DNA of 64,000 bases from NCBI GenBank assembly GCA_030647655.1, contig JAUSJH010000002.1, positions 43,711 to 107,710 of the forward strand, given 5' to 3'. The first letter of the stretch is position 1; every line of letters starts with the position of its first letter. Shown one piece after another: positions 3,242 through 48,161 of the stretch. The translations under genes were made by a program, and so were the position numbers. The DNA comes from a bacterium (GTDB lineage: Bacteria > Patescibacteriota > Minisyncoccia > Phycocordibacterales > UBA2100). Below the pieces are notes generated by a model. The model made no database searches. It saw only the letters and a list, made by a program, of their open reading frames with translations, and was not told the origin of the DNA.

Positions 3242-4536
3242 GAAAACTTTCGATGTTCCAGATCATGCTTCTCGTCATCTTCGGCGGTCTTGCCGTATCT
3301 GGTGTCTTGATATTCGCACTTGCCATAGGCGGCGGCGACACGAACACGATCGGTGCCGTCAAGATTTGGGGCACGCTTGACCAAGGGGCGTTTTCCATCG
3401 TCATCCGACAGGCGACAGAACGCGATGGACAATTGAGCCAAGTCACCTACGAGCAAAAAGACCCGGCGACCTACGAGAGCGAGCTCACCAATGCGCTTGC
3501 AAGCGGCACGGGGCCAGACCTCTTCCTGATGCGGCAGGATTACGCACTTAAAGACGCCGGCAAGGTTGCCCTCATTCCGTTCTCGGCGCTTTCGCAGGCG
3601 CAATTCGAGAACGCTTTCATCGAAGCGGCAAGTCCATTCCTTACGCAAAAAGGTGTTACTGCAGTCCCCCTCTTAGCCGATCCTCTCATTTTGTATTGGA
3701 ACAAAGATATGTTGGCTGCAGGTGGATTCGCACAGCCACCGAAATATTGGGACGAGCTTTTCAACATGGCGCAGAAGATAACGACGAAAGACGACACAGG
3801 CTCTATCCGCAAATCCACGGTTGCATTCGGTGAATATCAGAACGTAACGAATGCCAAAGATATCGTCGCGACCATGATACTCCAATCCGGTAGCACCATC
3901 ACAGCGTACGACAACGGAGGGCACCTCACTCCCGCGCTCGCGCCGCGCGCTGGGGGCGCCACACAAGCAAGCGTGTCGGCCCTGCGTTTCTACACGGAAT
4001 TCGCGGACCCTTCCAAGAACAGTTACTCATGGAACCGCTCGCTTCCGGAAGCGCAAAAAGCATTCGCTTCGGGCGATGTAGCGCTCTACATCGGGTATGC
4101 AAGCGAGGCACCACTTATCGCGCGCACGAATCCAAACCTTAATTTTACCGCCTCGCCTATGCCGCAAATACGCACCGGCGGTAAGACACTCACCGCCGCG
4201 CGTGTCTATGCACTCGGAGCTTCCCGCGCAGGCAAGAATCCGACCGCTGCCATTACCGCGGCGTTCCTTCTGGCATCGTCCGAGAATGCGAAAGCGCTCT
4301 CGAGTGCGCTCGGGATACCGAGTGCACGCCGCGACGTCGTGGGGCAATCTGCGCAAGGCACTGACGACCTCTTCAACAAACAAGCCATTCTTGCCAACTC
4401 ATGGCTTGATCCTGATCCTGAAAAGACAGCTACGCTCTTTCGCGCTATGATCGAAGGTACGACAAGCGGAACCTTGCAGGTAAGCGAAGCAATCCAGCGC
4501 GCGGACCAGCAATTGGCACAAATTCTTGGCCTATGA
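3238..4536 (+). CDS. extracellular solute-binding protein (SBP family 1-like), membrane-anchored
   Basis: N-terminal transmembrane/signal anchor (MFQIMLLVIFGGLAVSGVLIF). About 430 aa periplasmic-type binding-protein composition. Start overlaps the upstream stop (ATGA). No adjacent permease genes. Confidence 0.55.
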   Translation: MRKLSMFQIMLLVIFGGLAVSGVLIFALAIGGGDTNTIGAVKIWGTLDQGAFSIVIRQATERDGQLSQVTYEQKDPATYESELTNALASGTGPDLFLMRQDYALKDAGKVALIPFSALSQAQFENAFIEAASPFLTQKGVTAVPLLADPLILYWNKDMLAAGGFAQPPKYWDELFNMAQKITTKDDTGSIRKSTVAFGEYQNVTNAKDIVATMILQSGSTITAYDNGGHLTPALAPRAGGATQASVSALRFYTEFADPSKNSYSWNRSLPEAQKAFASGDVALYIGYASEAPLIARTNPNLNFTASPMPQIRTGGKTLTAARVYALGASRAGKNPTAAITAAFLLASSENAKALSSALGIPSARRDVVGQSAQGTDDLFNKQAILANSWLDPDPEKTATLFRAMIEGTTSGTLQVSEAIQRADQQLAQILGL

Positions 4537-4992: not shown

Positions 4993-5379
4993 ATGCGACA
5001 TGCTCGGACCATATTACCTATACTATTGCTCGCGGCGCCAGCGGTCGCCAGCGCCGCCGCACCACGCACATTTCAGGAGCTTGCGAGCCTCATCGTCCTC
5101 ATACTCGACAATGCTACGGCAGTCCTCATTGTCGCCGGTATCGTTATCTACTTCTGGGGCATCTCGACCAACATCCTAAAACTCAGCGACGAAGGCGGAG
5201 CAAAACTCAAACTATATCTTTTCTGGGGGATCATCGTGCTTTTTGTGATGGTATCCATTTGGGGAATTCTGCGGCTTCTACAAAGTACGATTTTTGGTAG
5301 TAGTGCATATAGTCAATCGTCGGAATTGACCGAGAGCAGGTCACCGGATCTTTTCCAGCCTCCGGTCTTTAGCGAATAA
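4993..5379 (+). CDS. TrbC/VirB2-like pilin family small membrane protein (paralog B)
   Basis: ATG lies 1 nt after paralog A's stop. Signal peptide ILPILLLAAPAVASA, two TM helices, and the motif FVMVSIWGILRLLQST shared with paralog D. Confidence 0.55.
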   Translation: MRHARTILPILLLAAPAVASAAAPRTFQELASLIVLILDNATAVLIVAGIVIYFWGISTNILKLSDEGGAKLKLYLFWGIIVLFVMVSIWGILRLLQSTIFGSSAYSQSSELTESRSPDLFQPPVFSE

Positions 5380-9019: not shown

Positions 9020-10516
9020 TTATTGCATAGAGCTTGTGAATGCCTCTATGACGTCGCCTTCGGCTATCTCGCACTCGCAAGCAACCTGTGCCCCGAATTC
9101 GCGGCCCTCCTCGATTCTGTCTACATCTTGTTTGTTAGCTTGGACATTCTTCAACTTTCCTGTCCCAACGAGCTCGTTGCGTCTCATGATGCGGACTGTG
9201 GCACCTCGCGAGAGAAATCCGTCGACGACTTTGCCACCGACGACCTGCGCATCTTTGCGGCTTGAGAAATGTTTCAGGATGCGGGCGCGCCCCGTGGTAT
9301 TTTCGACGAGTCTCTTGGGCGCACGCTCTCCCAAAAGTTCCTCGAGACGCTCGGTGAGTTTGTAAATGATGGTAAAAGTCTCGATTTTGATACCGTGCTG
9401 AAGCGCGAGCGCAAAGGCCGGCGCGTCGATTACTACGTTGAACCCGACGACCACCGATCCATTACTTGCGATTGCGGCCTTCACGTCATTTTCCGACACA
9501 GCGCCGATGCCCGATTGTACGATGCTCACACGCGCATGTTCATCTCCCAGCTTCTCGGTCTCTTGTGCGATAGCTTCGAGTGAGCCGGAGACGTCTGCGC
9601 GCACTATTACAGGCATGGTAAATGGACCCACTTCTCCTTCGGCAAGTAGATGAGGGGCCGCGTGCGTGCTTCCGGCAGGCGCTTCCGCAGGGCGGGCGTC
9701 TTCAGCCTCGTGCTTTGTCTCATACGCGTAAAATTCTTCACCAACATTCGGTAGCTCGTCGAATCCTATGAGCTGTACTGGCGAGGAGAAGCTCGCTTCT
9801 TCAAGGGCCACTCCCGAATAATCTTCCATAATACGCACAGGAGCGATAGCGCGCCCCGCACGTACCGACATGCCGGAGTGCAGAGTTCCGTTCTTTACGA
9901 TGAGTGTCGCGGCGAGTCCGCGCTTTTGGTCTCGATGAGACTCAATGACATAGCCTTGCGCCGCGGCGCTTGGGTCTCCGGTGAATCCCTCCATCTCCGC
10001 TACCAAGAGGATGAGGTCCAAAAGCTCTTCGACACCGGTCCCCACCTTGGCCGAAACGGCGGCCCACGGCACGTCGCCGCCGAATTTTTCGAGGTACACA
10101 TTCTGCTCCAAAAGCATCCTCTGTGTGCGCGCGATATCCGCTGTCGGCTTGTCTATCTTGTTGAGGGCGACGATGAAAGGGGTGTTTGTATCGCGGATGC
10201 TTTTCAGAGCTTCGAGCGTCTGCGCTTTCACCCCATCGTCCGCGGCAACGACGAGTATGGCGATGTCGGCGGCCGAGGCACCGCGTGCGCGTATCGCGGA
10301 GAATGCTGCGTGTCCGGGAGTATCAATAAAAGTGATGCGCTTGTTTTTGTGCACTACTTCGTACGCCGCGACGTGCTGTGTGATGCCGCCCGCTTCAGTG
10401 GCGACCACGTTTGATTTGCGGATGAAATCGAGGAGCGTGGATTTACCGTGATCAACGTGTCCCAAAACTGCCACAATAGGCGGACGCTCTGTTGAATTGT
10501 TCGGTTTTGGGGTCAT
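9020..10516 (-). CDS. infB: translation initiation factor IF-2 (N-terminally short form)
   Basis: G domain AVLGHVDHGKSTLLD...DTPGH...NKID, followed by the IF-2 domain II/C-terminal beta-barrel. Only 498 aa, so it lacks the long N-terminal region. Confidence 0.95.
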   Translation of the reverse strand: MTPKPNNSTERPPIVAVLGHVDHGKSTLLDFIRKSNVVATEAGGITQHVAAYEVVHKNKRITFIDTPGHAAFSAIRARGASAADIAILVVAADDGVKAQTLEALKSIRDTNTPFIVALNKIDKPTADIARTQRMLLEQNVYLEKFGGDVPWAAVSAKVGTGVEELLDLILLVAEMEGFTGDPSAAAQGYVIESHRDQKRGLAATLIVKNGTLHSGMSVRAGRAIAPVRIMEDYSGVALEEASFSSPVQLIGFDELPNVGEEFYAYETKHEAEDARPAEAPAGSTHAAPHLLAEGEVGPFTMPVIVRADVSGSLEAIAQETEKLGDEHARVSIVQSGIGAVSENDVKAAIASNGSVVVGFNVVIDAPAFALALQHGIKIETFTIIYKLTERLEELLGERAPKRLVENTTGRARILKHFSSRKDAQVVGGKVVDGFLSRGATVRIMRRNELVGTGKLKNVQANKQDVDRIEEGREFGAQVACECEIAEGDVIEAFTSSMQ

Positions 10517-17424: not shown

Positions 17425-18093
17425 ATGTTGCCCAAAAAACCAGAAAAGAAGAAAGCGATTCGTTTGCGTGAGCAAGGTCGTTCTCTGAACGAAATCGCAA
17501 GGCAACTTAAAGTCTCAAAGGCATCTGTCTCTATTTGGGTACGGGACACAGTTTTGTCGAAACGTGCGCAGGAAAGAATTGAAAGGAAGAAGCTCGAGGC
17601 GCGCATGAAGGCCGCGAAGACTAATCGCGAACGGACAGAGCGCCTTCTACAGAACGCCGCCGCGAATGCTGATGCCGCGGTATCTAGCCTCAAACTTGAT
17701 GTCGAACTTATGCAAGTAATGTGCGCACTTATTTACTGGTGCGAGGGAGAGAAGGCGAAAAATGATAAAACGCTGACGTTCGCGAATTCCGACCCACGTC
17801 TTGTGACGACATTCCTGTTCCTATTACGCAAAAGCTTCGAGTTAGATGAGGGAAAACTCAGAGTCTGCCTACACTTACACGACTATCACAAAGAAAAGGT
17901 TCAGGTGCAGTTTTGGTCGCGGGTAACGAGGATACCGCCCACTCAGTTTCTAAAAACTTACCACAAGCAACACACGGGAAAACGTACGCGAGAAGGATAT
18001 GCAGGATGCGCGAGTATACGGTATTATGACACTCGGATTGCTCGGCAACTGCAAGCGCTCGCCCGGGCATTCCTAAAGAAAACGGGTCCATAG
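17425..18093 (+). CDS. HTH-domain protein with single-motif LAGLIDADG-like (homing endonuclease-like) domain
   Basis: N-terminal HTH (RSLNEIARQLKVSKASVSIWV). Central ALIYWCEGEK followed by LTFANSDP...LLRKSF...GK, which matches the LAGLIDADG motif and the downstream scaffold of I-CreI-like enzymes. The stop codon overlaps the first 10 nt of tRNA-Trp. Confidence 0.45.
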   Translation: MLPKKPEKKKAIRLREQGRSLNEIARQLKVSKASVSIWVRDTVLSKRAQERIERKKLEARMKAAKTNRERTERLLQNAAANADAAVSSLKLDVELMQVMCALIYWCEGEKAKNDKTLTFANSDPRLVTTFLFLLRKSFELDEGKLRVCLHLHDYHKEKVQVQFWSRVTRIPPTQFLKTYHKQHTGKRTREGYAGCASIRYYDTRIARQLQALARAFLKKTGP

Positions 18094-18157
18094 TTCAATG
18101 GTAGAATATCTCTCTCCAAAAGAGCAGACCTAGGTTCGATTCCTAGTGGGCCCGCCA
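18084..18157 (+). tRNA. tRNA-Trp (anticodon CCA), CCA end encoded
   Basis: GGGTCCATAGTTCAATGGTAGAAT; anticodon loop CTCCAAA; T-arm CTAGGTTCGATTCCTAG; acceptor TGGGCCC-G-CCA. Confidence 0.75.
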
Positions 18158-44108: not shown

Positions 44109-45077
44109 ATGCTGGTAGATGAAATAACCATAACGACCAAAGCGGGCGATGGCGGCAAAGGCTGCGTTGCTTTCAATAAGGTCAAGCTCTCGCGGGGCCC
44201 CACGGGGGCAGATGGAGGGCTCGGTGGAAGCGTCTACTTCGAGGGCACCTCGGATATCAATGCGCTCATGAACTACGCCAGCCAGAAAGAAGTGGCGGGA
44301 GAGAAGGGGCATGATGGCCGCGGGCAATTCCTCGACGGTCGTCGCGGGGAAGATCTCGTCGTGAAAATCCCGACGGGGACCACTATCACCAATATAGAAA
44401 CGAACTATACCCAAGAGATAACAAAAGTGGGTGAGCGCATCCTTGCCGCAGGCGGGGGCATCGGCGGGCGGGGGAATTTCAAATTCCGTTCAGCTATAAA
44501 TACAACGCCGATGGAATCGGAAGAAGGCACGCCGGGCGACCGCGCGACTTACCGACTCGAGCTCCGGCTCATCGCCGACGTGGGCCTCGTTGGCTTGCCC
44601 AATGCAGGCAAATCGAGCCTGCTCAATGAGCTCACCGCCGCCAAAAGCCGTGTGGCTAATTACGCCTTCACCACGCTTGAGCCGCACCTTGGCTCGTACT
44701 ACGGAATTATCCTCGCCGATATCCCCGGCATCATCGAAGGGGCGTCGGGCGGCAAGGGGCTCGGCGTCAAATTCCTCAAACACATTGAGCGCACCAAGGT
44801 ACTCTTTCATCTCATCGATGCAGAATCCGACGACGTCGTGCGCGACTACAAAGTCATTCGCAACGAATTGCAGACGTATAACCCAGAGCTCACCAAGAAA
44901 ATCGAACATATCCTCCTTACGAAGACTGATGCAGTGCCTCCCGAGGAGTTAAAAGAAAAGATTGCGGCACTAAAAAAAGCCAAACTCAAGCCACTTCCGA
45001 TATCCATCCTCGAACCAGCAAGCCTCGAAGAAGTGAAAAAAATCCTCAACAAGATCAAGGACGAGAAAGGGTTGTAG
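44109..45077 (+). CDS. obg: GTPase Obg (short form)
   Basis: Gly-rich Obg fold (DGGKGCVAF...GGLGGSV) and G domain (GLPNAGKSSLL, DIPG, TKTD). Confidence 0.9.
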   Translation: MLVDEITITTKAGDGGKGCVAFNKVKLSRGPTGADGGLGGSVYFEGTSDINALMNYASQKEVAGEKGHDGRGQFLDGRRGEDLVVKIPTGTTITNIETNYTQEITKVGERILAAGGGIGGRGNFKFRSAINTTPMESEEGTPGDRATYRLELRLIADVGLVGLPNAGKSSLLNELTAAKSRVANYAFTTLEPHLGSYYGIILADIPGIIEGASGGKGLGVKFLKHIERTKVLFHLIDAESDDVVRDYKVIRNELQTYNPELTKKIEHILLTKTDAVPPEELKEKIAALKKAKLKPLPISILEPASLEEVKKILNKIKDEKGL

Positions 45078-45152
45078 GTCCGAGCTTCGAGAAAGGGTTC
45101 CTGACACCCTTCCTCCCACAGCAAAATCAAGACGATTTATCGGATCGGTAGC

Positions 45153-45179
45153 CGACACCAAGGTCCGGCCTTGGTGTCG
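45153..45179 (+). terminator. 11-bp stem-loop after obg
   Basis: CGACACCAAGG-TCCGG-CCTTGGTGTCG. No clear U tract. Confidence 0.4.
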
Positions 45180-45266
45180 TAAGCCACTTCACAATCAGGT
45201 GCCAATCCCGTCGTATACTTGCAACAATGAGGTTCGAACCGCTGGTTTATCTGATACACTTATCCT

Positions 45267-45986
45267 ATGAGTTACAGTAAAAAATTATTTGTAATTGCAA
45301 CAATTATTGCATTAAGCGGAATAGTCGGGGCTTTATTATTGACCGTTTTTATACCTGGGTTTTATCTTTGGTACATAGGTATCCCTTTAATGCTCATAGT
45401 TTTTTTATTTGCATTAAGAAAACTTTTTCAATCTACAACAGTACAGAAAGATAAAATATATATTGTAATCACGCTTGTTATCAGCATTTTATATTTACTT
45501 CCTACTAGTAGTACTTTGTGGTCTCGGTTTAATTATAATCTTAGAAATTACGGAATGGAAAAAGTGCAAAACTTTGAGCAATGTGGAAGCATTCCCTATG
45601 TATCTCAAAAGGATGAGTGTATTACTCACGTTGCAAAAGTAAAAGGTGATGCTGACGGATGTAATCAAATATCAGATATACATACTCAGAATTCATGTAA
45701 ACGATTTGCCACAGCAACACTAGCAGGGATTATGAATGATGTCTCCCTATGCTTTAAGATAGAAGATTATATTGAAAAAGATTATGAACGTATTCAACGT
45801 CTTATAATCCCTATTTGTATAGGAGAAGTCGCTAGGATCAATAATAACCAGGACGCATGCAATGCATTTCGTGATGTTGAAGGATTTGTAAAAGAACATG
45901 GTGAAGTAGAAGTGAAGCAATATATTGATGAATGTAAATCCAGAGCCGCTGGAACCCCTGTTCAACTTCCAATTATCTCACGGTAA
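45267..45986 (+). CDS. low-GC Cys-rich membrane-anchored hypothetical protein (likely foreign)
   Basis: 239 aa with GC far below the window average. Two N-terminal TM helices and 12 Cys in the soluble domain. Confidence 0.5.
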   Translation: MSYSKKLFVIATIIALSGIVGALLLTVFIPGFYLWYIGIPLMLIVFLFALRKLFQSTTVQKDKIYIVITLVISILYLLPTSSTLWSRFNYNLRNYGMEKVQNFEQCGSIPYVSQKDECITHVAKVKGDADGCNQISDIHTQNSCKRFATATLAGIMNDVSLCFKIEDYIEKDYERIQRLIIPICIGEVARINNNQDACNAFRDVEGFVKEHGEVEVKQYIDECKSRAAGTPVQLPIISR

Positions 45987-46032
45987 ATAAATGGGGACAA
46001 TAAACGGGTATAAACGGGGATATAAACGGGGA
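45986..46032. repeat. four tandem copies of an 11-12 bp unit ATAAAYGGGGA
   Basis: AATAAATGGGGAC / AATAAACGGGT / ATAAACGGGGAT / ATAAACGGGGAC, directly after the stop of the low-GC gene. Confidence 0.7.
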
Positions 46033-46089
46033 CAGGCACAGTTTATCTCCCTTTTTTGTGGCGTGAAAAGCACAAAGGTCGGTTCTTTG

Positions 46090-46200
46090 TGCTTCGAGGA
46101 CTTTTAGACGCTGTTTCCGGCGACGAAGCCGGTGGTCCAGCAGAGCTGGAGCGAGTAACCTCCCGATGGGCGATTGATGTGGAGCACGTCGTCCGTGAGA
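46090..46200 (-). pseudogene. orphan duplicated 3'-end fragment of the HI0933-like flavoprotein gene
   Basis: About 100 nt that are roughly 90% identical to 46910-47010, including a 59-nt exact core. The minus strand translates to DDVLHINRPSGGYSLQLCWTTGFVAGNS, which equals the C-terminus of the 46914-48161 gene. Confidence 0.7.
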
Positions 46201-46273
46201 AAAGGATAGGCGCAGTTTATTTCACTTTTCTGGGGTGTAATGTTTTTCGGTGGGCGACCCGCGATGAAGGAGG

Positions 46274-46612
46274 TTACTTAATGAGGGTTACAGTGCGCAT
46301 GAGACTGTTGAGCGCTCGCCGGTCTTTCGCTCCGAGAGTGCCAATGCATTTGAGAAGGCGCCGCGAGTCGAGAGCGCGCAGTTGAAACACAAGAGCTACG
46401 GATGGTTTGGTAAGCTTGTTAGTCGCGTCGGGCAAAATGCGCAGGGTGGCATTGAACCGCAAGCGGGCAGTATTTGAAGAAAGTGGAATAATGAGAGAAA
46501 CGCCCCCTTCTCCATACAAAAATATCCCCGGCCGGATGCCTGCCTGTTCGCGCCCCGAGGGAATAGTGCCGAGATCTACGAGGACAATGTCCCCCGGCAC
46601 CACGCTGGTCAT
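46274..46612 (-). CDS. MazF/PemK-family toxin (mRNA interferase)
   Basis: GDIVLVDLGTIPSGREQAGIRPGIFL...LIIPLSS matches the PemK/MazF fold signature. 4-nt overlap with the upstream antitoxin. Confidence 0.75.
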   Translation of the reverse strand: MTSVVPGDIVLVDLGTIPSGREQAGIRPGIFLYGEGGVSLIIPLSSNTARLRFNATLRILPDATNKLTKPSVALVFQLRALDSRRLLKCIGTLGAKDRRALNSLMRTVTLIK

Positions 46613-46809
46613 AGGTTGCGGGCTTTTGCGAATTGCGCGAAATCTCTCAAGGACGTCTCGTCCCAGAGACGCATCTCCGCGGCCATATCATTCTCCGCCT
46701 CAATGGCTTGTTTGAGTGCGGTACGGACATACTCTGTCTGCGTCACACCGTGCCTCTGCGCACGCTGGCGAACTTGTTTTTCGAGGCTCTTTGGGATGAC
46801 TACGTTCAT
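46609..46809 (-). CDS. antitoxin (RHH/MazE-like)
   Basis: 66 aa. MNVVIPKSLEKQVRQRAQRHGVTQTEYVRTALKQAIE is a ribbon-helix-helix. Translationally coupled to the toxin. Confidence 0.6.
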   Translation of the reverse strand: MNVVIPKSLEKQVRQRAQRHGVTQTEYVRTALKQAIEAENDMAAEMRLWDETSLRDFAQFAKARNL

Positions 46810-46913
46810 GCGATTAGTATAGCGCTATAAATCCTTCAATGCCACTCATAGATAAACGGAGATTCTCCTTCGCCAAGGCTACGCAAGGGCGCAGCAGGCG
46901 CAGTTTGCCTCTT

Positions 46914-48161
46914 TTAGACACTGTTACCGGCGACAAATCCGGTGGTCCAGCAGAGCTGGAGCGAGTAACCTCCCGATGGGCGATTGATGTGGAGCACATC
47001 GCCGATGAGGTAGAGATTGGGGACTTTTAGGGAGCGCATGGTGCGCGTGTCTACTTCAGTGAGCGGCACGCCGCCGTCGGAGATGACCGCTCTATCGAAC
47101 CCCATGAGTCCCGAGATTGTGAGTGGCGCGCCTTTTAAGAGATGAACGAGTCGTTTGCGCTCTTCTTTTGTCACGTTGTGGGCTTTGAGATTTACATCGG
47201 GAAGCGCAAGCAGAATGAGAATTCCTTTTGCCATTCCATTCGGAAGAATCTCTGCCAGTACATTTTTAAAATCCTTATTCTTGTTGGCATCCATCTTGGC
47301 AATTATCTGCCGCTCGAGGGCGGCGAAGTCTGTATCGGGATACATGTCGATGGTCGCGGTAACCTCGGCATTCTTGAGCAATTCCGCAACGGCGCTCGCG
47401 CTGTTCAATATGAGGGGTCCCGAGAGTCCGAAGTGGGTGAAGAGTAGCCCGCCCGTCTTTGAGAATGCGCGTTTGCCGTCGGAGAAGAAGGTGATTTTCA
47501 TACGCTCGAGCGAGATGCCCGCGAGCGACTTTACCCAGCTCTCGCTTACTTTCAAGGGCACGATAGTCGGAGTTGGCTCCTGCACGGTATGTCCAAGCTC
47601 TGTGAGCCATTTGAATCCATCGCCCGTCGAGCCCGTCTCGGGATGCGAGACGCCGCCGGTTGCGATTATGAACGTATCAGCACGATAGGTGCCGTGTTCG
47701 GTCTTTGCCTCCGCGATGCGATTGCCGACGGCGGAGAGATTCTTCACAGACGTTTTCATCATCACGGTAACGCCTGCGTCGGTAAGATATTTTTTCATGA
47801 CGCGCGTTACGTCGGGAGATTTTTGCGTCTCGGGGAAAGCCCGCCTGCGCGCTTCTACGACGAGCGGGAGCCCGCGTACGCCAAAAAAGTCGAACGTATT
47901 CTGCACTCCGAATTGTGAGAGCGGGGAATAGAGGAATTGCTCCGCTGAGCCGTAGTGTTTGGCAAATGCATGTCGGTCAAACTCGGCATTAGTGATGTTG
48001 CAACGGCCGCCACCAGTGATATCAAGTTTCTTCCCGAGCGTCGCATTTTTCTCGAGCAGCAAGACCGATCTGCCGCGCTCGGCCGCACGCCCCGCCGCCA
48101 TCATTCCCGAAGCTCCGCCGCCGATGACGATGACCTCGTATTTTTTGGTCTCTGCGCTCAT
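46914..48161 (-). CDS. HI0933-like FAD-dependent flavoprotein (YhiN/aminoacetone oxidase family)
   Basis: YEVIVIGGGASGMMAAG Rossmann motif. ...GGGRCNITN and the C-terminal GGYSLQLCWTTGFVAG are typical of the family. Start trimmed to MSAETKKYEV. Confidence 0.85.
   Translation of the reverse strand: MSAETKKYEVIVIGGGASGMMAAGRAAERGRSVLLLEKNATLGKKLDITGGGRCNITNAEFDRHAFAKHYGSAEQFLYSPLSQFGVQNTFDFFGVRGLPLVVEARRRAFPETQKSPDVTRVMKKYLTDAGVTVMMKTSVKNLSAVGNRIAEAKTEHGTYRADTFIIATGGVSHPETGSTGDGFKWLTELGHTVQEPTPTIVPLKVSESWVKSLAGISLERMKITFFSDGKRAFSKTGGLLFTHFGLSGPLILNSASAVAELLKNAEVTATIDMYPDTDFAALERQIIAKMDANKNKDFKNVLAEILPNGMAKGILILLALPDVNLKAHNVTKEERKRLVHLLKGAPLTISGLMGFDRAVISDGGVPLTEVDTRTMRSLKVPNLYLIGDVLHINRPSGGYSLQLCWTTGFVAGNSV

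What the first reader, a model, noticed from the sequence alone, without database searches (positions are those of the whole stretch)
45230..46914. Small accessory island: low-GC Cys-rich gene, tandem 11-mers, MazEF-type toxin-antitoxin and a duplicated host-gene 3' end
A 1.7-kb segment lies between obg and the flavoprotein gene and is compositionally and structurally foreign. It contains:
- a gene about 20 points lower in GC than the background, encoding a 12-Cys membrane-anchored protein;
- four tandem ATAAAYGGGGA repeats directly after that gene;
- an orphan roughly 100-nt copy of the flavoprotein 3' end (about 90% identical, with a 59-nt exact core);
- a translationally coupled RHH-antitoxin/MazF-toxin pair.

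The two copies of the flavoprotein 3' end bracket the toxin-antitoxin module like attL/attR of an element that integrates into the 3' end of a protein-coding gene and restores it. No integrase is present, so this is probably a decayed integrative element whose addiction module survives.
Basis: seen in the sequence. Interest (0 to 1): 0.7.

Follow-up and report, generated by a model that had tools for sequence, protein, structure and literature searches.

The report
Toxin-antitoxin cassette with spare gene end
A two-gene toxin-antitoxin module has been spliced into the last ~100 bases of a flavoprotein gene in an ultra-small groundwater bacterium, bringing its own copy of the gene's end so the gene stays intact; the same trick recurs in relatives with no integrase in sight.

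Summary

The window comes from a Patescibacteria (Kaiserbacteria/Nomurabacteria-like) genome. In its relatives, obg and an HI0933-family flavoprotein gene converge, and in three of them only 3-36 nt separate the two genes. Here 1.8 kb sits between them, and it reflects two separate events.

1. A GC-poor orphan gene (33.5% GC) followed by a REP-like hairpin lies in the old intergenic hotspot.
2. An RHH-MazF operon with host-like GC (55%) lies between two copies of the flavoprotein 3' end (99 nt, 92% identical, 59-nt exact core).

The downstream "orphan" copy is the ancestral gene end. It keeps the native terminator, orthologous to that of relative L006, and it carries consensus bases at the sites where the copies differ. 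The gene-proximal copy is imported and differs only synonymously over the last 28 codons.

The same architecture recurs elsewhere:
- a Phd/ParE module at the same gene end in L009;
- a homologous RHH-MazF at a methyltransferase gene end in L162-L171.

In every case the insert contains only the toxin-antitoxin pair and leaves no room for an integrase.

Best reading: this is a minimal, integrase-less toxin-antitoxin cassette carrying a gene-end mimic, integrated attL/attR-style. The "decayed large element" idea is only partly supported. It is a new variant of a known kind, of moderate interest.

The parts
44109..45077 (+). obg GTPase gene: left boundary of the conserved convergent junction
   Evidence: Pfam GTP1_OBG plus MMR_HSR1. 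Orthologues 75-91% identical lie next to the flavoprotein gene in L002-L010, L087-L100.
45153..45179 (.). Perfect 11-bp-stem hairpin on the obg side; probable terminator bounding the variable spot
   Evidence: It loosely resembles the flavoprotein terminator hairpin (16/21 matches), but this is not significant.
45267..45986 (+). Low-GC orphan gene: 239 aa, three N-terminal hydrophobic helices, all-helical C-terminal domain with 8 Cys. This is a separate insertion in the old intergenic spot.
   Evidence: GC 33.5%, GC3 23%. No Pfam or NCBIfam hit. One close homologue (86%) among 5.8 billion proteins. Weak hits to unannotated Cys-repeat proteins. AF2 pLDDT 62, helical, no significant fold match. 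No phage or plasmid match.
45987..46057 (.). REP-like element: about 4 tandem ATAAAYGGGGA units plus one inverted copy. These form the hairpin GGGGATATAAAC/GTTTATCTCCC followed by T6, which is terminator-like for the low-GC gene. The core is TGTGCCTGTCCCC on the minus strand.
   Evidence: TRF and folding at z=-3.5 to -4.8. The same core flanks a Y1_Tnp pseudogene in inverted orientation in L144. It also follows MazF in L162 and L172.
46068..46094 (-). Ancestral intrinsic terminator of the flavoprotein gene (10-bp stem plus TTTT); it now ends the toxin-antitoxin transcript
   Evidence: Folding. It is orthologous to the hairpin directly after the L006 flavoprotein stop.
46101..46219 (-). Orphan (displaced, ancestral) 3' end of the flavoprotein gene. 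Clear homology runs to about 46101-46203 and is fuzzy up to 46219. There is no start codon, so it is non-coding.
   Evidence: At sites where the copies differ it carries the relatives' majority base. In the last 36 nt it is closer than the gene copy to 13 of 14 relatives.
46208..46218 (-). AAACTGCGCCT: short site at the right end of the toxin-antitoxin cassette. It is one of three direct copies; the others are at 46034-46044 and 46896-46906.
   Evidence: All three copies in the window lie here; about 0.06 are expected by chance in 64 kb (my estimate). Their meaning is unresolved.
46274..46612 (-). MazF/PemK-family toxin gene (112 aa)
   Evidence: PF02452 E=2e-13, 50.9 bits against a cut-off of 23.1. 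A profile of 7 homologues matches solved MazF/EndoA structures at E=1e-10. Homologues are 60-79% identical in groundwater metagenomes.
46609..46809 (-). Antitoxin gene (66 aa), probably with an RHH N-terminus; overlaps MazF by 4 nt
   Evidence: Sub-threshold CopG, FitA and RelB RHH hits. VapB26 RHH matches at E=0.01 with the family profile. It is conserved upstream of every MazF homologue examined.
46816..46845 (-). Promoter-like site of the toxin-antitoxin operon (GTGGCA-18-TATACT). The palindrome TAGCGCTA (46820-46827) overlaps the -10 and is a putative operator.
   Evidence: The motif is conserved in L162. A role as operator is inference.
46896..46906 (-). AAACTGCGCCT: short site at the left end of the cassette, 7 nt after the flavoprotein stop
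46911..47029 (-). Gene-proximal repeat copy: the imported 3' end that now completes the flavoprotein ORF
   Evidence: It holds minority (non-consensus) synonymous bases at -25, -22 and -7 and at the I codon (-92/-91). There is no native terminator behind it.
46914..48161 (-). HI0933/TIGR00275 FAD flavoprotein gene (415 aa), intact
   Evidence: It aligns over full length at 80-87% identity to relatives.

Best explanation
The toxin-antitoxin part (about 46204-47030) is a minimal integrated cassette. It consists of an RHH-antitoxin/MazF-toxin operon with its own promoter. It arrived joined to its own copy of the last ~100-120 nt of the flavoprotein gene.

One reciprocal, Campbell-type crossover at the upstream edge of that homology placed the cassette inside the chromosomal gene. 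The gene now finishes in imported sequence with an unchanged protein end. The native 3' end and its terminator were pushed ~810 nt downstream as a silent orphan. This is an attL/attR arrangement.

The cassette encodes no recombinase. Integration was therefore catalysed in trans, either by a site-specific or other recombinase encoded elsewhere, or by host recombination after DNA uptake.

The toxin-antitoxin pair then acts as an addiction module. Cells that delete the cassette by recombination between the flanking repeats lose the labile antitoxin and are poisoned by the MazF ribonuclease, so the insert persists.

The low-GC gene with its REP-like hairpin is an unrelated, earlier or later insertion into the same hypervariable spot between two convergent core genes.

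Shown: the anatomy, the polarity of the two copies, empty sites in relatives, and recurrence of the architecture. Inferred: the crossover mechanism, the enzyme, toxin activity and the addiction role.
For: 1. **Empty sites.** Flavoprotein and obg converge with gaps of 3-36 nt in L002, L010/L097 and L100. The L100 obg is 91% identical. Other relatives carry unrelated cargo at the same spot.
2. **The orphan is ancestral.** The orphan plus its downstream hairpin match the L006 gene end plus terminator at 88% over 136 nt. The gene-proximal copy matches only through the coding part.
3. **Polarity of the copies.** At 5 sites the orphan has the base held by most of 14 relatives and the gene copy has the minority base. 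These are -25, -22, -7 and -92/-91; a sixth site (-85) is nearly split (8 vs 6). The orphan has one private change, at -89, and it is non-synonymous. This is the reverse of what a local duplication followed by decay of the orphan would give.
4. **Synonymous differences.** All differences within the last 28 codons are synonymous. By my own count over all three cases, synonymous changes outnumber non-synonymous ones about 16 to 3.
5. **Recurrence.**
   - In L009, a Phd/ParE pair (E=4e-8 and 4e-9) lies between the flavoprotein end and a 62-72-nt orphan copy.
   - In L162-L171, from more than 10 independent assemblies, an RHH-MazF 66% identical to this one lies between a Methyltransf_24 gene end and a 60-nt orphan (87% identical). 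That orphan matches the native gene end of syntenic L172 better than the gene copy does (55 vs 50 of 60).
6. **No room for a recombinase.** At most 38-115 nt of spacer lies on either side of the toxin-antitoxin pair in every case.
7. **Host-like composition.** The toxin-antitoxin pair has 55% GC and GC3 of about 0.6, so the donor was probably a related Patescibacterium.
8. **Competence.** Patescibacteria are reported to be naturally competent and to keep homologous-recombination genes (PMC12455944).
Against: - No recombinase, excised circle or unoccupied allele was observed for this genome.
- The three cases share no common sequence at the crossover edge, so a single site-specific enzyme is not indicated.
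- The repeats in L009 and L162 have identity runs of only 21 and 12 nt. That is short for RecA-dependent crossover unless they diverged afterwards.
- The 59-nt exact core in the window needs an extra assumption: later gene conversion, or a crossover within it. If the crossover were in the core, the bases upstream of it should be native in the gene copy, and they look non-native there.
- Several homologous RHH-MazF cassettes have no flanking repeat at all (L172, L191, L193).
- Toxin and antitoxin activity are untested.
Confidence: 0.55

Rival explanations
1. Remnant of a larger integrase-encoding integrative element. A phage-like or ICE-like element integrated site-specifically into the flavoprotein 3' end. 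It then lost everything except its addiction module and both att sites, which would make it a classical CIME.
For: The attL/attR-like geometry, with the imported end next to the gene and the native end displaced, is exactly that of integrase-driven elements targeting gene 3' ends. CIMEs are defined as elements that lost integration and transfer genes but kept attL and attR (PMC5704250). Toxin-antitoxin modules are the genes most likely to survive decay.
Against: Three independent inserts are all exactly toxin-antitoxin-sized (550-810 nt between repeat starts), with spacers too short for any remnant. No integrase lies in any flavoprotein-obg gap of relatives. No second copy of the flavoprotein end lies within 6-8 kb in 158 other loci. 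Ten unassigned window ORFs checked with Pfam showed no recombinase domain. The viral collection has no match to the att-like core or to the toxin.
Confidence: 0.2
2. Homology-facilitated illegitimate recombination of linear DNA taken up from a relative in which the toxin-antitoxin pair already lay directly downstream of the flavoprotein gene. One end recombined homologously within the gene. The other end joined illegitimately ~100 nt before the recipient's stop codon, leaving a partial duplicate by accident.
For: L172 shows the proposed donor-type state for the methyltransferase locus: the toxin-antitoxin pair directly follows the stop codon with no repeat. The imported copy carries non-consensus bases at sites across the repeat, outside the 59-nt core that is identical in both copies. 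Competence and recombination genes are reported in the phylum.
Against: In all three cases the left junction (native to foreign) and the right junction fall at nearly the same position of the gene. That is what a single-point or Campbell event predicts, not two independent junctions. The duplicates are always short (60-119 nt) and always in frame with an intact gene.
Confidence: 0.12
3. A locally generated duplication: a long target-site duplication or replication slippage at the moment a bare toxin-antitoxin cassette inserted. Both copies were then originally identical host sequence.
For: Many Patescibacteria loci in this data set carry 40-170-nt direct repeats around 1-3 cargo genes, including duplicated 5' gene ends in L109 and L007. 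This hints at a general duplicative insertion process. The three AAACTGYGCCT sites at the cassette borders could be short target duplications.
Against: The unconstrained orphan is the copy that stayed consensus-like, while the constrained gene copy holds the divergent bases. Nearly all differences are synonymous. In L162 the orphan matches a syntenic relative's native end better than the gene copy does. Both results are the opposite of what duplication followed by decay would give.
Confidence: 0.06
4. Assembly artefact: two strain variants, or a chromosome and a small circular molecule, stitched together through the shared 59-nt core.
For: The Logan contig breaks inside the exact core. The exact MazF, antitoxin and flavoprotein products were not found as called genes in the contig index.
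Against: A break at a 59-nt exact repeat is expected for a k-mer assembler and does not contradict the join. The source-record contig that carries both the MazF and the low-GC gene is 197,796 bp long. The junction between the MazF end and the orphan is non-flavoprotein sequence, so it must exist physically.
Confidence: 0.05

Closest known systems
CIMEs (cis-mobilizable elements) and integrative elements that target the 3' end of protein-coding genes, such as the streptococcal ICE/IME/CIME family (definition in PMC5704250)
   Same: Direct repeats (attL/attR) consist of the target gene's 3' end. The gene is restored by element-borne sequence and the native end is displaced. No integration or transfer genes lie inside.
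   Different: No cognate integrase-bearing element was found for this att site. The content is only a toxin-antitoxin operon (0.55-0.8 kb), in three independent cases and at two different target genes. This argues for a minimal unit rather than random decay. The host is a CPR bacterium.
Toxin-antitoxin-only chromosomal islets flanked by a duplicated recombination site (Photorhabdus ParE/RelE flanked by a duplicated 24-bp res-like palindrome; PMC13617665)
   Same: A toxin-antitoxin operon is the sole cargo. The locus is empty in close relatives. The target sequence is duplicated on both sides, and no mobile-element gene is present.
   Different: There the duplicate is a 24-bp palindromic resolvase site. 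Here it is 60-119 nt of coding sequence of a host gene, with the imported copy taking over the coding function.
MazEF/PemIK type II toxin-antitoxin systems with an RHH antitoxin (for example Bacillus subtilis EndoA/EndoAI, Staphylococcus aureus MazEF)
   Same: The toxin matches PF02452 and solved MazF/EndoA chains. The small antitoxin gene lies upstream and overlaps the toxin gene. A palindrome overlaps the promoter.
   Different: Identity to characterised members is low. The RHH assignment is sub-threshold. Activity, cleavage specificity and autoregulation are untested.
REP elements with RAYT / IS200-like Y1 transposases
   Same: The tandem 11-mer region contains the core TGTGCCTGTCCCC inside a hairpin. 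Closely related cores flank Y1_Tnp genes in inverted orientation in L144 and L162.
   Different: Only one full copy exists in this 64-kb window, and the window has no Y1 transposase gene. No link to the gene-end duplication was demonstrated.

Membership tests
MazF/PemK toxin (PF02452) | Sequence match above the curated family threshold | tested here: met
   50.9 bits against a cut-off of 23.1, E=2e-13, covering 105 of 109 profile positions. The family profile hits solved MazF/EndoA chains at 1e-10 to 7e-8.
MazF/PemK toxin (PF02452) | Sequence-specific endoribonuclease activity neutralised by the cognate antitoxin | not testable with these tools
   Needs expression and cleavage assays.
Type II toxin-antitoxin operon with RHH antitoxin | Small antitoxin gene immediately upstream, co-oriented and overlapping or abutting the toxin gene | tested here: met
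   The 66-aa ORF overlaps MazF by 4 nt (ATGA). The same pairing occurs in all homologous loci.
Type II toxin-antitoxin operon with RHH antitoxin | Ribbon-helix-helix DNA-binding fold in the antitoxin N-terminus | tested here: inconclusive
   Only sub-threshold hits: CopG_antitoxin 19.7 vs 28, FitA-like RHH 18.1 vs 27, NCBIfam RelB-like 24.5 vs 50. The profile matches VapB26 at E=0.01. No structure was predicted.
Integrative element inserted in the 3' end of a protein-coding gene (attL/attR) | Direct repeats of the target gene's 3' end flank the insert, and the gene ORF is intact | tested here: met
Integrative element inserted in the 3' end of a protein-coding gene (attL/attR) | The gene-proximal copy is element-derived and the distal copy is the native end | tested here: met
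   The native terminator follows the orphan, and the orphan is consensus-like. The same polarity holds in L162 compared with L172.
Integrative element inserted in the 3' end of a protein-coding gene (attL/attR) | Unoccupied site in related genomes | tested here: met
   L002, L010/L097 and L100.
Integrative element inserted in the 3' end of a protein-coding gene (attL/attR) | Element-encoded tyrosine or serine integrase | tested here: not met
   No ORF besides the toxin-antitoxin pair lies between the repeats. None is present in L009 or L162 either.
CIME (cis-mobilizable element) | attL and attR retained, integration and transfer genes lost | tested here: met
   As above; definition from PMC5704250.
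CIME (cis-mobilizable element) | Derives from, and is mobilised by, a related integrase-bearing element using the same att site | tested here: inconclusive
   No such element appears in 160 flavoprotein loci within 6-8 kb or in viral contigs. Larger elements and the rest of this genome were not searchable.
Integron gene cassette | attC site with R''/R' cores (RYYYAAC...GTTRRRY) and an IntI integrase nearby | tested here: not met
   The border sites read GTTTGCC, GTTTATT and GTTTATC on the plus strand and do not fit GTTRRRY (read). No integrase was seen.
IS200/IS605-type element or REP/RAYT system | Y1 (HUH) transposase gene, or its cognate hairpin repeats at both ends | tested here: not met
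   tblastn of the L162 Y1_Tnp against the window gave no significant hit. A REP-like hairpin occurs on one side only, at 45987-46057.
Transposon-type target-site duplication | Flanking copies derive from one host sequence, so the unconstrained copy should be the more diverged | tested here: not met
   The orphan is the consensus-like copy, and differences are synonymous.

The most novel reading that the evidence does not exclude
Patescibacteria may harbour a class of minimal selfish elements made only of a toxin-antitoxin operon and a 60-120-nt mimic of the end of a conserved host gene.

These elements would spread between related genomes without any recombinase of their own. DNA would be taken up by natural competence. 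A single crossover would then occur at the gene end, and addiction would hold the insert in place. Loop-out between the flanking repeats would regenerate a transferable circle.

The same logic, a duplicated gene end that keeps the interrupted gene intact, may be a general route for adding cargo to genomes with almost no intergenic space. Other loci here show duplicated 5' or 3' gene ends around unrelated cargo.
Probability: 0.3. Interest if true: 0.75.

Novelty: new variant of a known kind. Interest (0 to 1): 0.5.

Why it matters
Toxin-antitoxin modules are known to be mobile, yet how isolated toxin-antitoxin islets enter chromosomes is still debated; PMC13617665 addresses exactly this question.

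This locus gives a clean, polarised example. The cassette brings its own replacement for the gene end it interrupts. Two toxin-antitoxin families and two target genes show the same design, with no recombinase on board.

If general, this would explain two things:
- how streamlined, gene-dense CPR genomes acquire accessory genes without damaging core genes;
- why toxin-antitoxin pairs sit at the ends of conserved genes.

It also yields a simple, searchable signature: a toxin-antitoxin operon between diverged direct copies of a neighbouring gene's end.

Tried and rejected
- **tRNA or known RNA at the borders.** None lies within the region. The GGTTCGAACC at about 45233 is only a palindrome.
- **Terminal inverted repeats around the low-GC gene.** A resemblance seen by eye (GTGCCAATCCC vs GTGCCTGTCCCC) did not survive a local-alignment test. 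The best hit was the two terminator hairpins, p about 0.2.
- **Mosaic test for a long donor tract in the flavoprotein gene.** Sliding identity first suggested an L009-like 3' end. Informative-site analysis reduced this to two codons (P and I) at -108 to -91. I therefore make no claim of an L009-like donor.
- **Integron reading of the AAACTGYGCCT sites.** Rejected because there is no GTTRRRY core.
- **Exact-sequence look-ups.** MazF, the antitoxin and the flavoprotein gave no hits.
- **Viral collection.** Searches for the att-like core and for the toxin found nothing.
- **Phage and plasmid tblastn of the low-GC protein.** Nothing was found.
- **Structure prediction of the low-GC protein.** The model was of low confidence (pLDDT 62) and had only insignificant matches to generic helical repeats.
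- **Further MazF contexts.** P0008 showed no repeats, and for P0009 no DNA was available.

Full report
**What is in the sequence**

The region lies between two convergent core genes. obg is at 44109-45077(+) and an HI0933/TIGR00275 FAD flavoprotein gene is at 46914-48161(-). Reading from obg towards the flavoprotein gene, the features are:

| Coordinates | Feature |
|---|---|
| 45153-45179 | strong hairpin |
| 45267-45986(+) | 239-aa gene, 33.5% GC, GC3 23% (neighbours about 55% and 65%) |
| 45987-46032 | 3.9 tandem 11-12-mers |
| about 46017-46057 | the tandem units plus one inverted copy form a hairpin followed by T6 |
| 46068-46094 | a second hairpin |
| 46101-46219 | orphan copy of the flavoprotein 3' end |
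| 46274-46612(-) | MazF/PemK toxin gene |
| 46609-46809(-) | 66-aa antitoxin gene, overlapping MazF by 4 nt |
| 46816-46845 | promoter-like site |
| from 46914 | the flavoprotein stop codon |

The two copies of the gene end are 86% identical over 119 nt and 92% over 99 nt, with a 59-nt exact core. This is the only long direct repeat in the 64 kb.

An independent Logan assembly of SRR13727527 reproduces the left part. It breaks inside the exact core, as a k-mer assembler should at a real repeat.

**Where it comes from and what relatives look like**

Flavoprotein homologues place the window in Patescibacteria, in a group labelled Kaiserbacteria or Nomurabacteria. The best matches are 80-87% identical.

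In this group the flavoprotein and obg genes converge. The junction is essentially empty in three lineages:
- L002, with a 3-nt gap;
- L010/L097, with 36 nt;
- L100, with about 5 nt between the stop codons and an obg that is 91% identical.

Other relatives carry 0.5-2 kb of unrelated cargo at the same spot. This cargo includes secreted proteins, a collagen-like protein, membrane proteins, an ArsR-like regulator and an IS30-like fragment. The junction is thus a hypervariable hotspot between two core genes. None of these gaps holds an integrase-like ORF.

**Which copy is the original**

The orphan copy continues into the hairpin at 46068-46094. Orphan plus hairpin align to the L006 gene end plus its downstream terminator at 88% over 136 nt. 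The gene-proximal copy aligns to relatives only within coding sequence and is followed by unrelated DNA.

I polarised the ten sites at which the two copies differ against 14 relatives.
- The orphan has the majority base at -25, -22, -7 and -92/-91 (a sixth site, -85, is nearly split, 8 vs 6).
- The gene copy has the minority base at those sites.
- The orphan's only private change is a non-synonymous G-to-A at -89.

Within the last 28 codons every difference is synonymous, and the encoded peptide is identical.

A local duplication followed by decay of the useless copy predicts the opposite pattern. I conclude that the orphan is the native 3' end with the native terminator. The present end of the gene was imported together with the toxin-antitoxin pair.

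The toxin-antitoxin pair has host-like GC and GC3, so its donor was probably another Patescibacterium. The low-GC gene is separated from the toxin-antitoxin pair by the ancestral terminator and orphan. It is therefore a different event in the old intergenic space.

**The architecture recurs**

- **L009.** This relative has a flavoprotein 70% identical to the window's. A Phd/YefM-ParE pair (E=4e-8 and 4e-9) sits directly after its flavoprotein stop. A 62-72-nt orphan copy of the gene end follows (92% identical).
- **L162-L171.** Homologues of the window's MazF (60-79% identical) are frequent in groundwater metagenomes. One of them is P0007. It was assembled the same way in at least ten samples. 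Its RHH-MazF operon lies directly after a Methyltransf_24 gene and is bracketed by a 60-nt repeat of that gene's end (87% identical, spacing 738 nt).
- **L172, the syntenic comparison.** Here the methyltransferase ends with the sequence found in the L162 orphan (...TMYWQLQSK*). The L162 gene copy ends ...TTYWQLQ*. Again the orphan is native and the proximal copy foreign.

In all three cases the insert is only a toxin-antitoxin operon, with at most 38-115 nt of spacer on either side of it. There is no space for a recombinase gene or its remnant. By my count, synonymous differences between the copies outnumber non-synonymous ones about 16 to 3 across the three cases.

Not every cassette of the family has such repeats (L172, L191, L193).

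**Mechanism**

The geometry is that of attL/attR after a single reciprocal crossover. One partner is the chromosome. The other is a molecule carrying the cassette next to a copy of the gene end.

Differences between the copies lie on both sides of the 59-nt exact core, and the whole orphan looks native. The crossover therefore lay at the upstream edge of the homology, as in integrase-driven elements that target gene 3' ends.

I could not identify the enzyme.
- The window has no Y1 transposase.
- Ten unassigned ORFs showed no recombinase domain.
- The three crossover edges share no motif.
- RecA-type recombination is possible for the window, with its 59-nt identity. It is less easy for L009 and L162, whose longest identity runs are 21 and 12 nt, unless those repeats diverged later.
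- Patescibacteria are reported to be competent and to retain recombination genes (PMC12455944).

The role of the toxin-antitoxin pair as an addiction module that penalises loop-out between the repeats is inference from the known behaviour of type II systems.

Family membership of the two proteins is uneven. The toxin is a solid MazF/PemK member. The antitoxin's RHH fold is only suggested.

**The tandem 11-mers**

The repeat region contains the core TGTGCCTGTCCCC inside the hairpin ATAAAC...GTTTAT. The same core occurs in several other places:
- in inverted orientation on both sides of a Y1_Tnp pseudogene in L144;
- about 85-100 nt after MazF in L162 and L172;
- in close variants (GGTACCTGACACC) flanking the intact Y1_Tnp of L162.

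The region is thus a REP-like element. In the window it probably also serves as terminator of the low-GC gene.

Three direct copies of AAACTGYGCCT lie at 46034, 46208 and 46896, and nowhere else in the window. They sit at the borders of the REP-like element, of the orphan segment and of the cassette. I cannot explain them.

**The low-GC gene**

- It has one close homologue (86% identical) among 5.8 billion proteins.
- An exhaustive HMMER search found weak similarity to unannotated proteins built of Cys-containing helical repeats.
- It has no Pfam or NCBIfam family and no phage or plasmid match.
- The structure model is of low confidence: three N-terminal helices and an all-helical domain, with no significant fold match.

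It is a foreign, probably membrane-anchored, protein of unknown function.

**Comparison with what is known**

[quoted passage not shown] A second parallel is the toxin-antitoxin-only islet recently described in Photorhabdus, one of which is flanked by a duplicated 24-bp res-like palindrome (PMC13617665).

This case differs in three ways:
- the duplicated site is 60-119 nt of coding sequence whose imported copy takes over the coding role;
- no integrase-bearing counterpart was found;
- the toxin-antitoxin-only format recurs with different toxin-antitoxin families and different target genes.

I therefore rate it a new variant of a known kind and of moderate interest (0.5).

The most novel reading not excluded is that these are self-sufficient minimal elements that need no recombinase of their own. 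I give that a probability of about 0.3.

Noticed in passing
L006 7260-7282, 8138-8160, about 9033-9061: The same ~29-nt terminator hairpin (orthologous to window 46068-46094) occurs three times. The copies bound each of two cargo genes between the flavoprotein gene and obg, giving a cassette-array-like layout.
   Followed up: partly
L188 4207-4228, 4735-4756, 5335-5356: In a toxin-antitoxin array downstream of trigger factor (ParE/RelB, HicBA, RHH-MazF), copies of the 22-nt direct repeat AAATCCCCCATAGGGCTACWGG bracket the HicBA and RHH-MazF cassettes (one before HicBA, one after each).
   Followed up: no
L109 89-178 / 1485-1574; L007 8535-8642 / 9804-9911: Direct repeats (98% and 86% identical) duplicate the 5' end of a gene around 2-3 cargo genes. 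Gene-end duplication around inserts is therefore not limited to 3' ends or to toxin-antitoxin cargo.
   Followed up: partly
L157 2325-3144; L028 1486-2240; L095 3173-4618: IS200-like Y1_Tnp genes are flanked by ~50-nt direct repeats that each contain a hairpin. The one in L157 sits immediately after the flavoprotein stop codon of an unrelated Patescibacterium.
   Followed up: partly
L162 3679-3721 / 5206-5248 and 4403-4426 / 5113-5136: A 43-nt direct repeat (93%) brackets the orphan methyltransferase end, a second PemK gene and a Y1_Tnp gene. The Y1_Tnp is itself flanked by 96%-complementary inverted REP-like arms.
   Followed up: partly
window 46034-46044, 46208-46218, 46896-46906 (minus strand): Three direct copies of AAACTGYGCCT lie at the borders of the REP-like element, the orphan segment and the toxin-antitoxin cassette. 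The motif occurs nowhere else in the 64 kb. Its meaning is unknown.
   Followed up: partly
window 45062-45073 and 45088-45099: The last 12 nt before the obg stop (CGAGAAAGGGTT) recur 26 nt downstream, next to a small hairpin. This may be chance or a tiny scar.
   Followed up: no
window 46810-46830: The palindrome TAGCGCTA overlaps the -10 box (TATACT) of the toxin-antitoxin promoter and is conserved in L162. The antitoxin ATG lies only 7 nt after the -10, which suggests a leaderless mRNA.
   Followed up: no
window 17425-18093: A 222-aa ORF with only an HTH_23 / resolvase-type HTH match overlaps the start of tRNA-Trp (18084-18157). No catalytic recombinase domain was detected.
   Followed up: no
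L086 5780-6243: An IS30-like transposase N-terminus, judged from its sequence by eye, lies in the flavoprotein-downstream variable region of a close relative and is cut off by the contig end.
   Followed up: no
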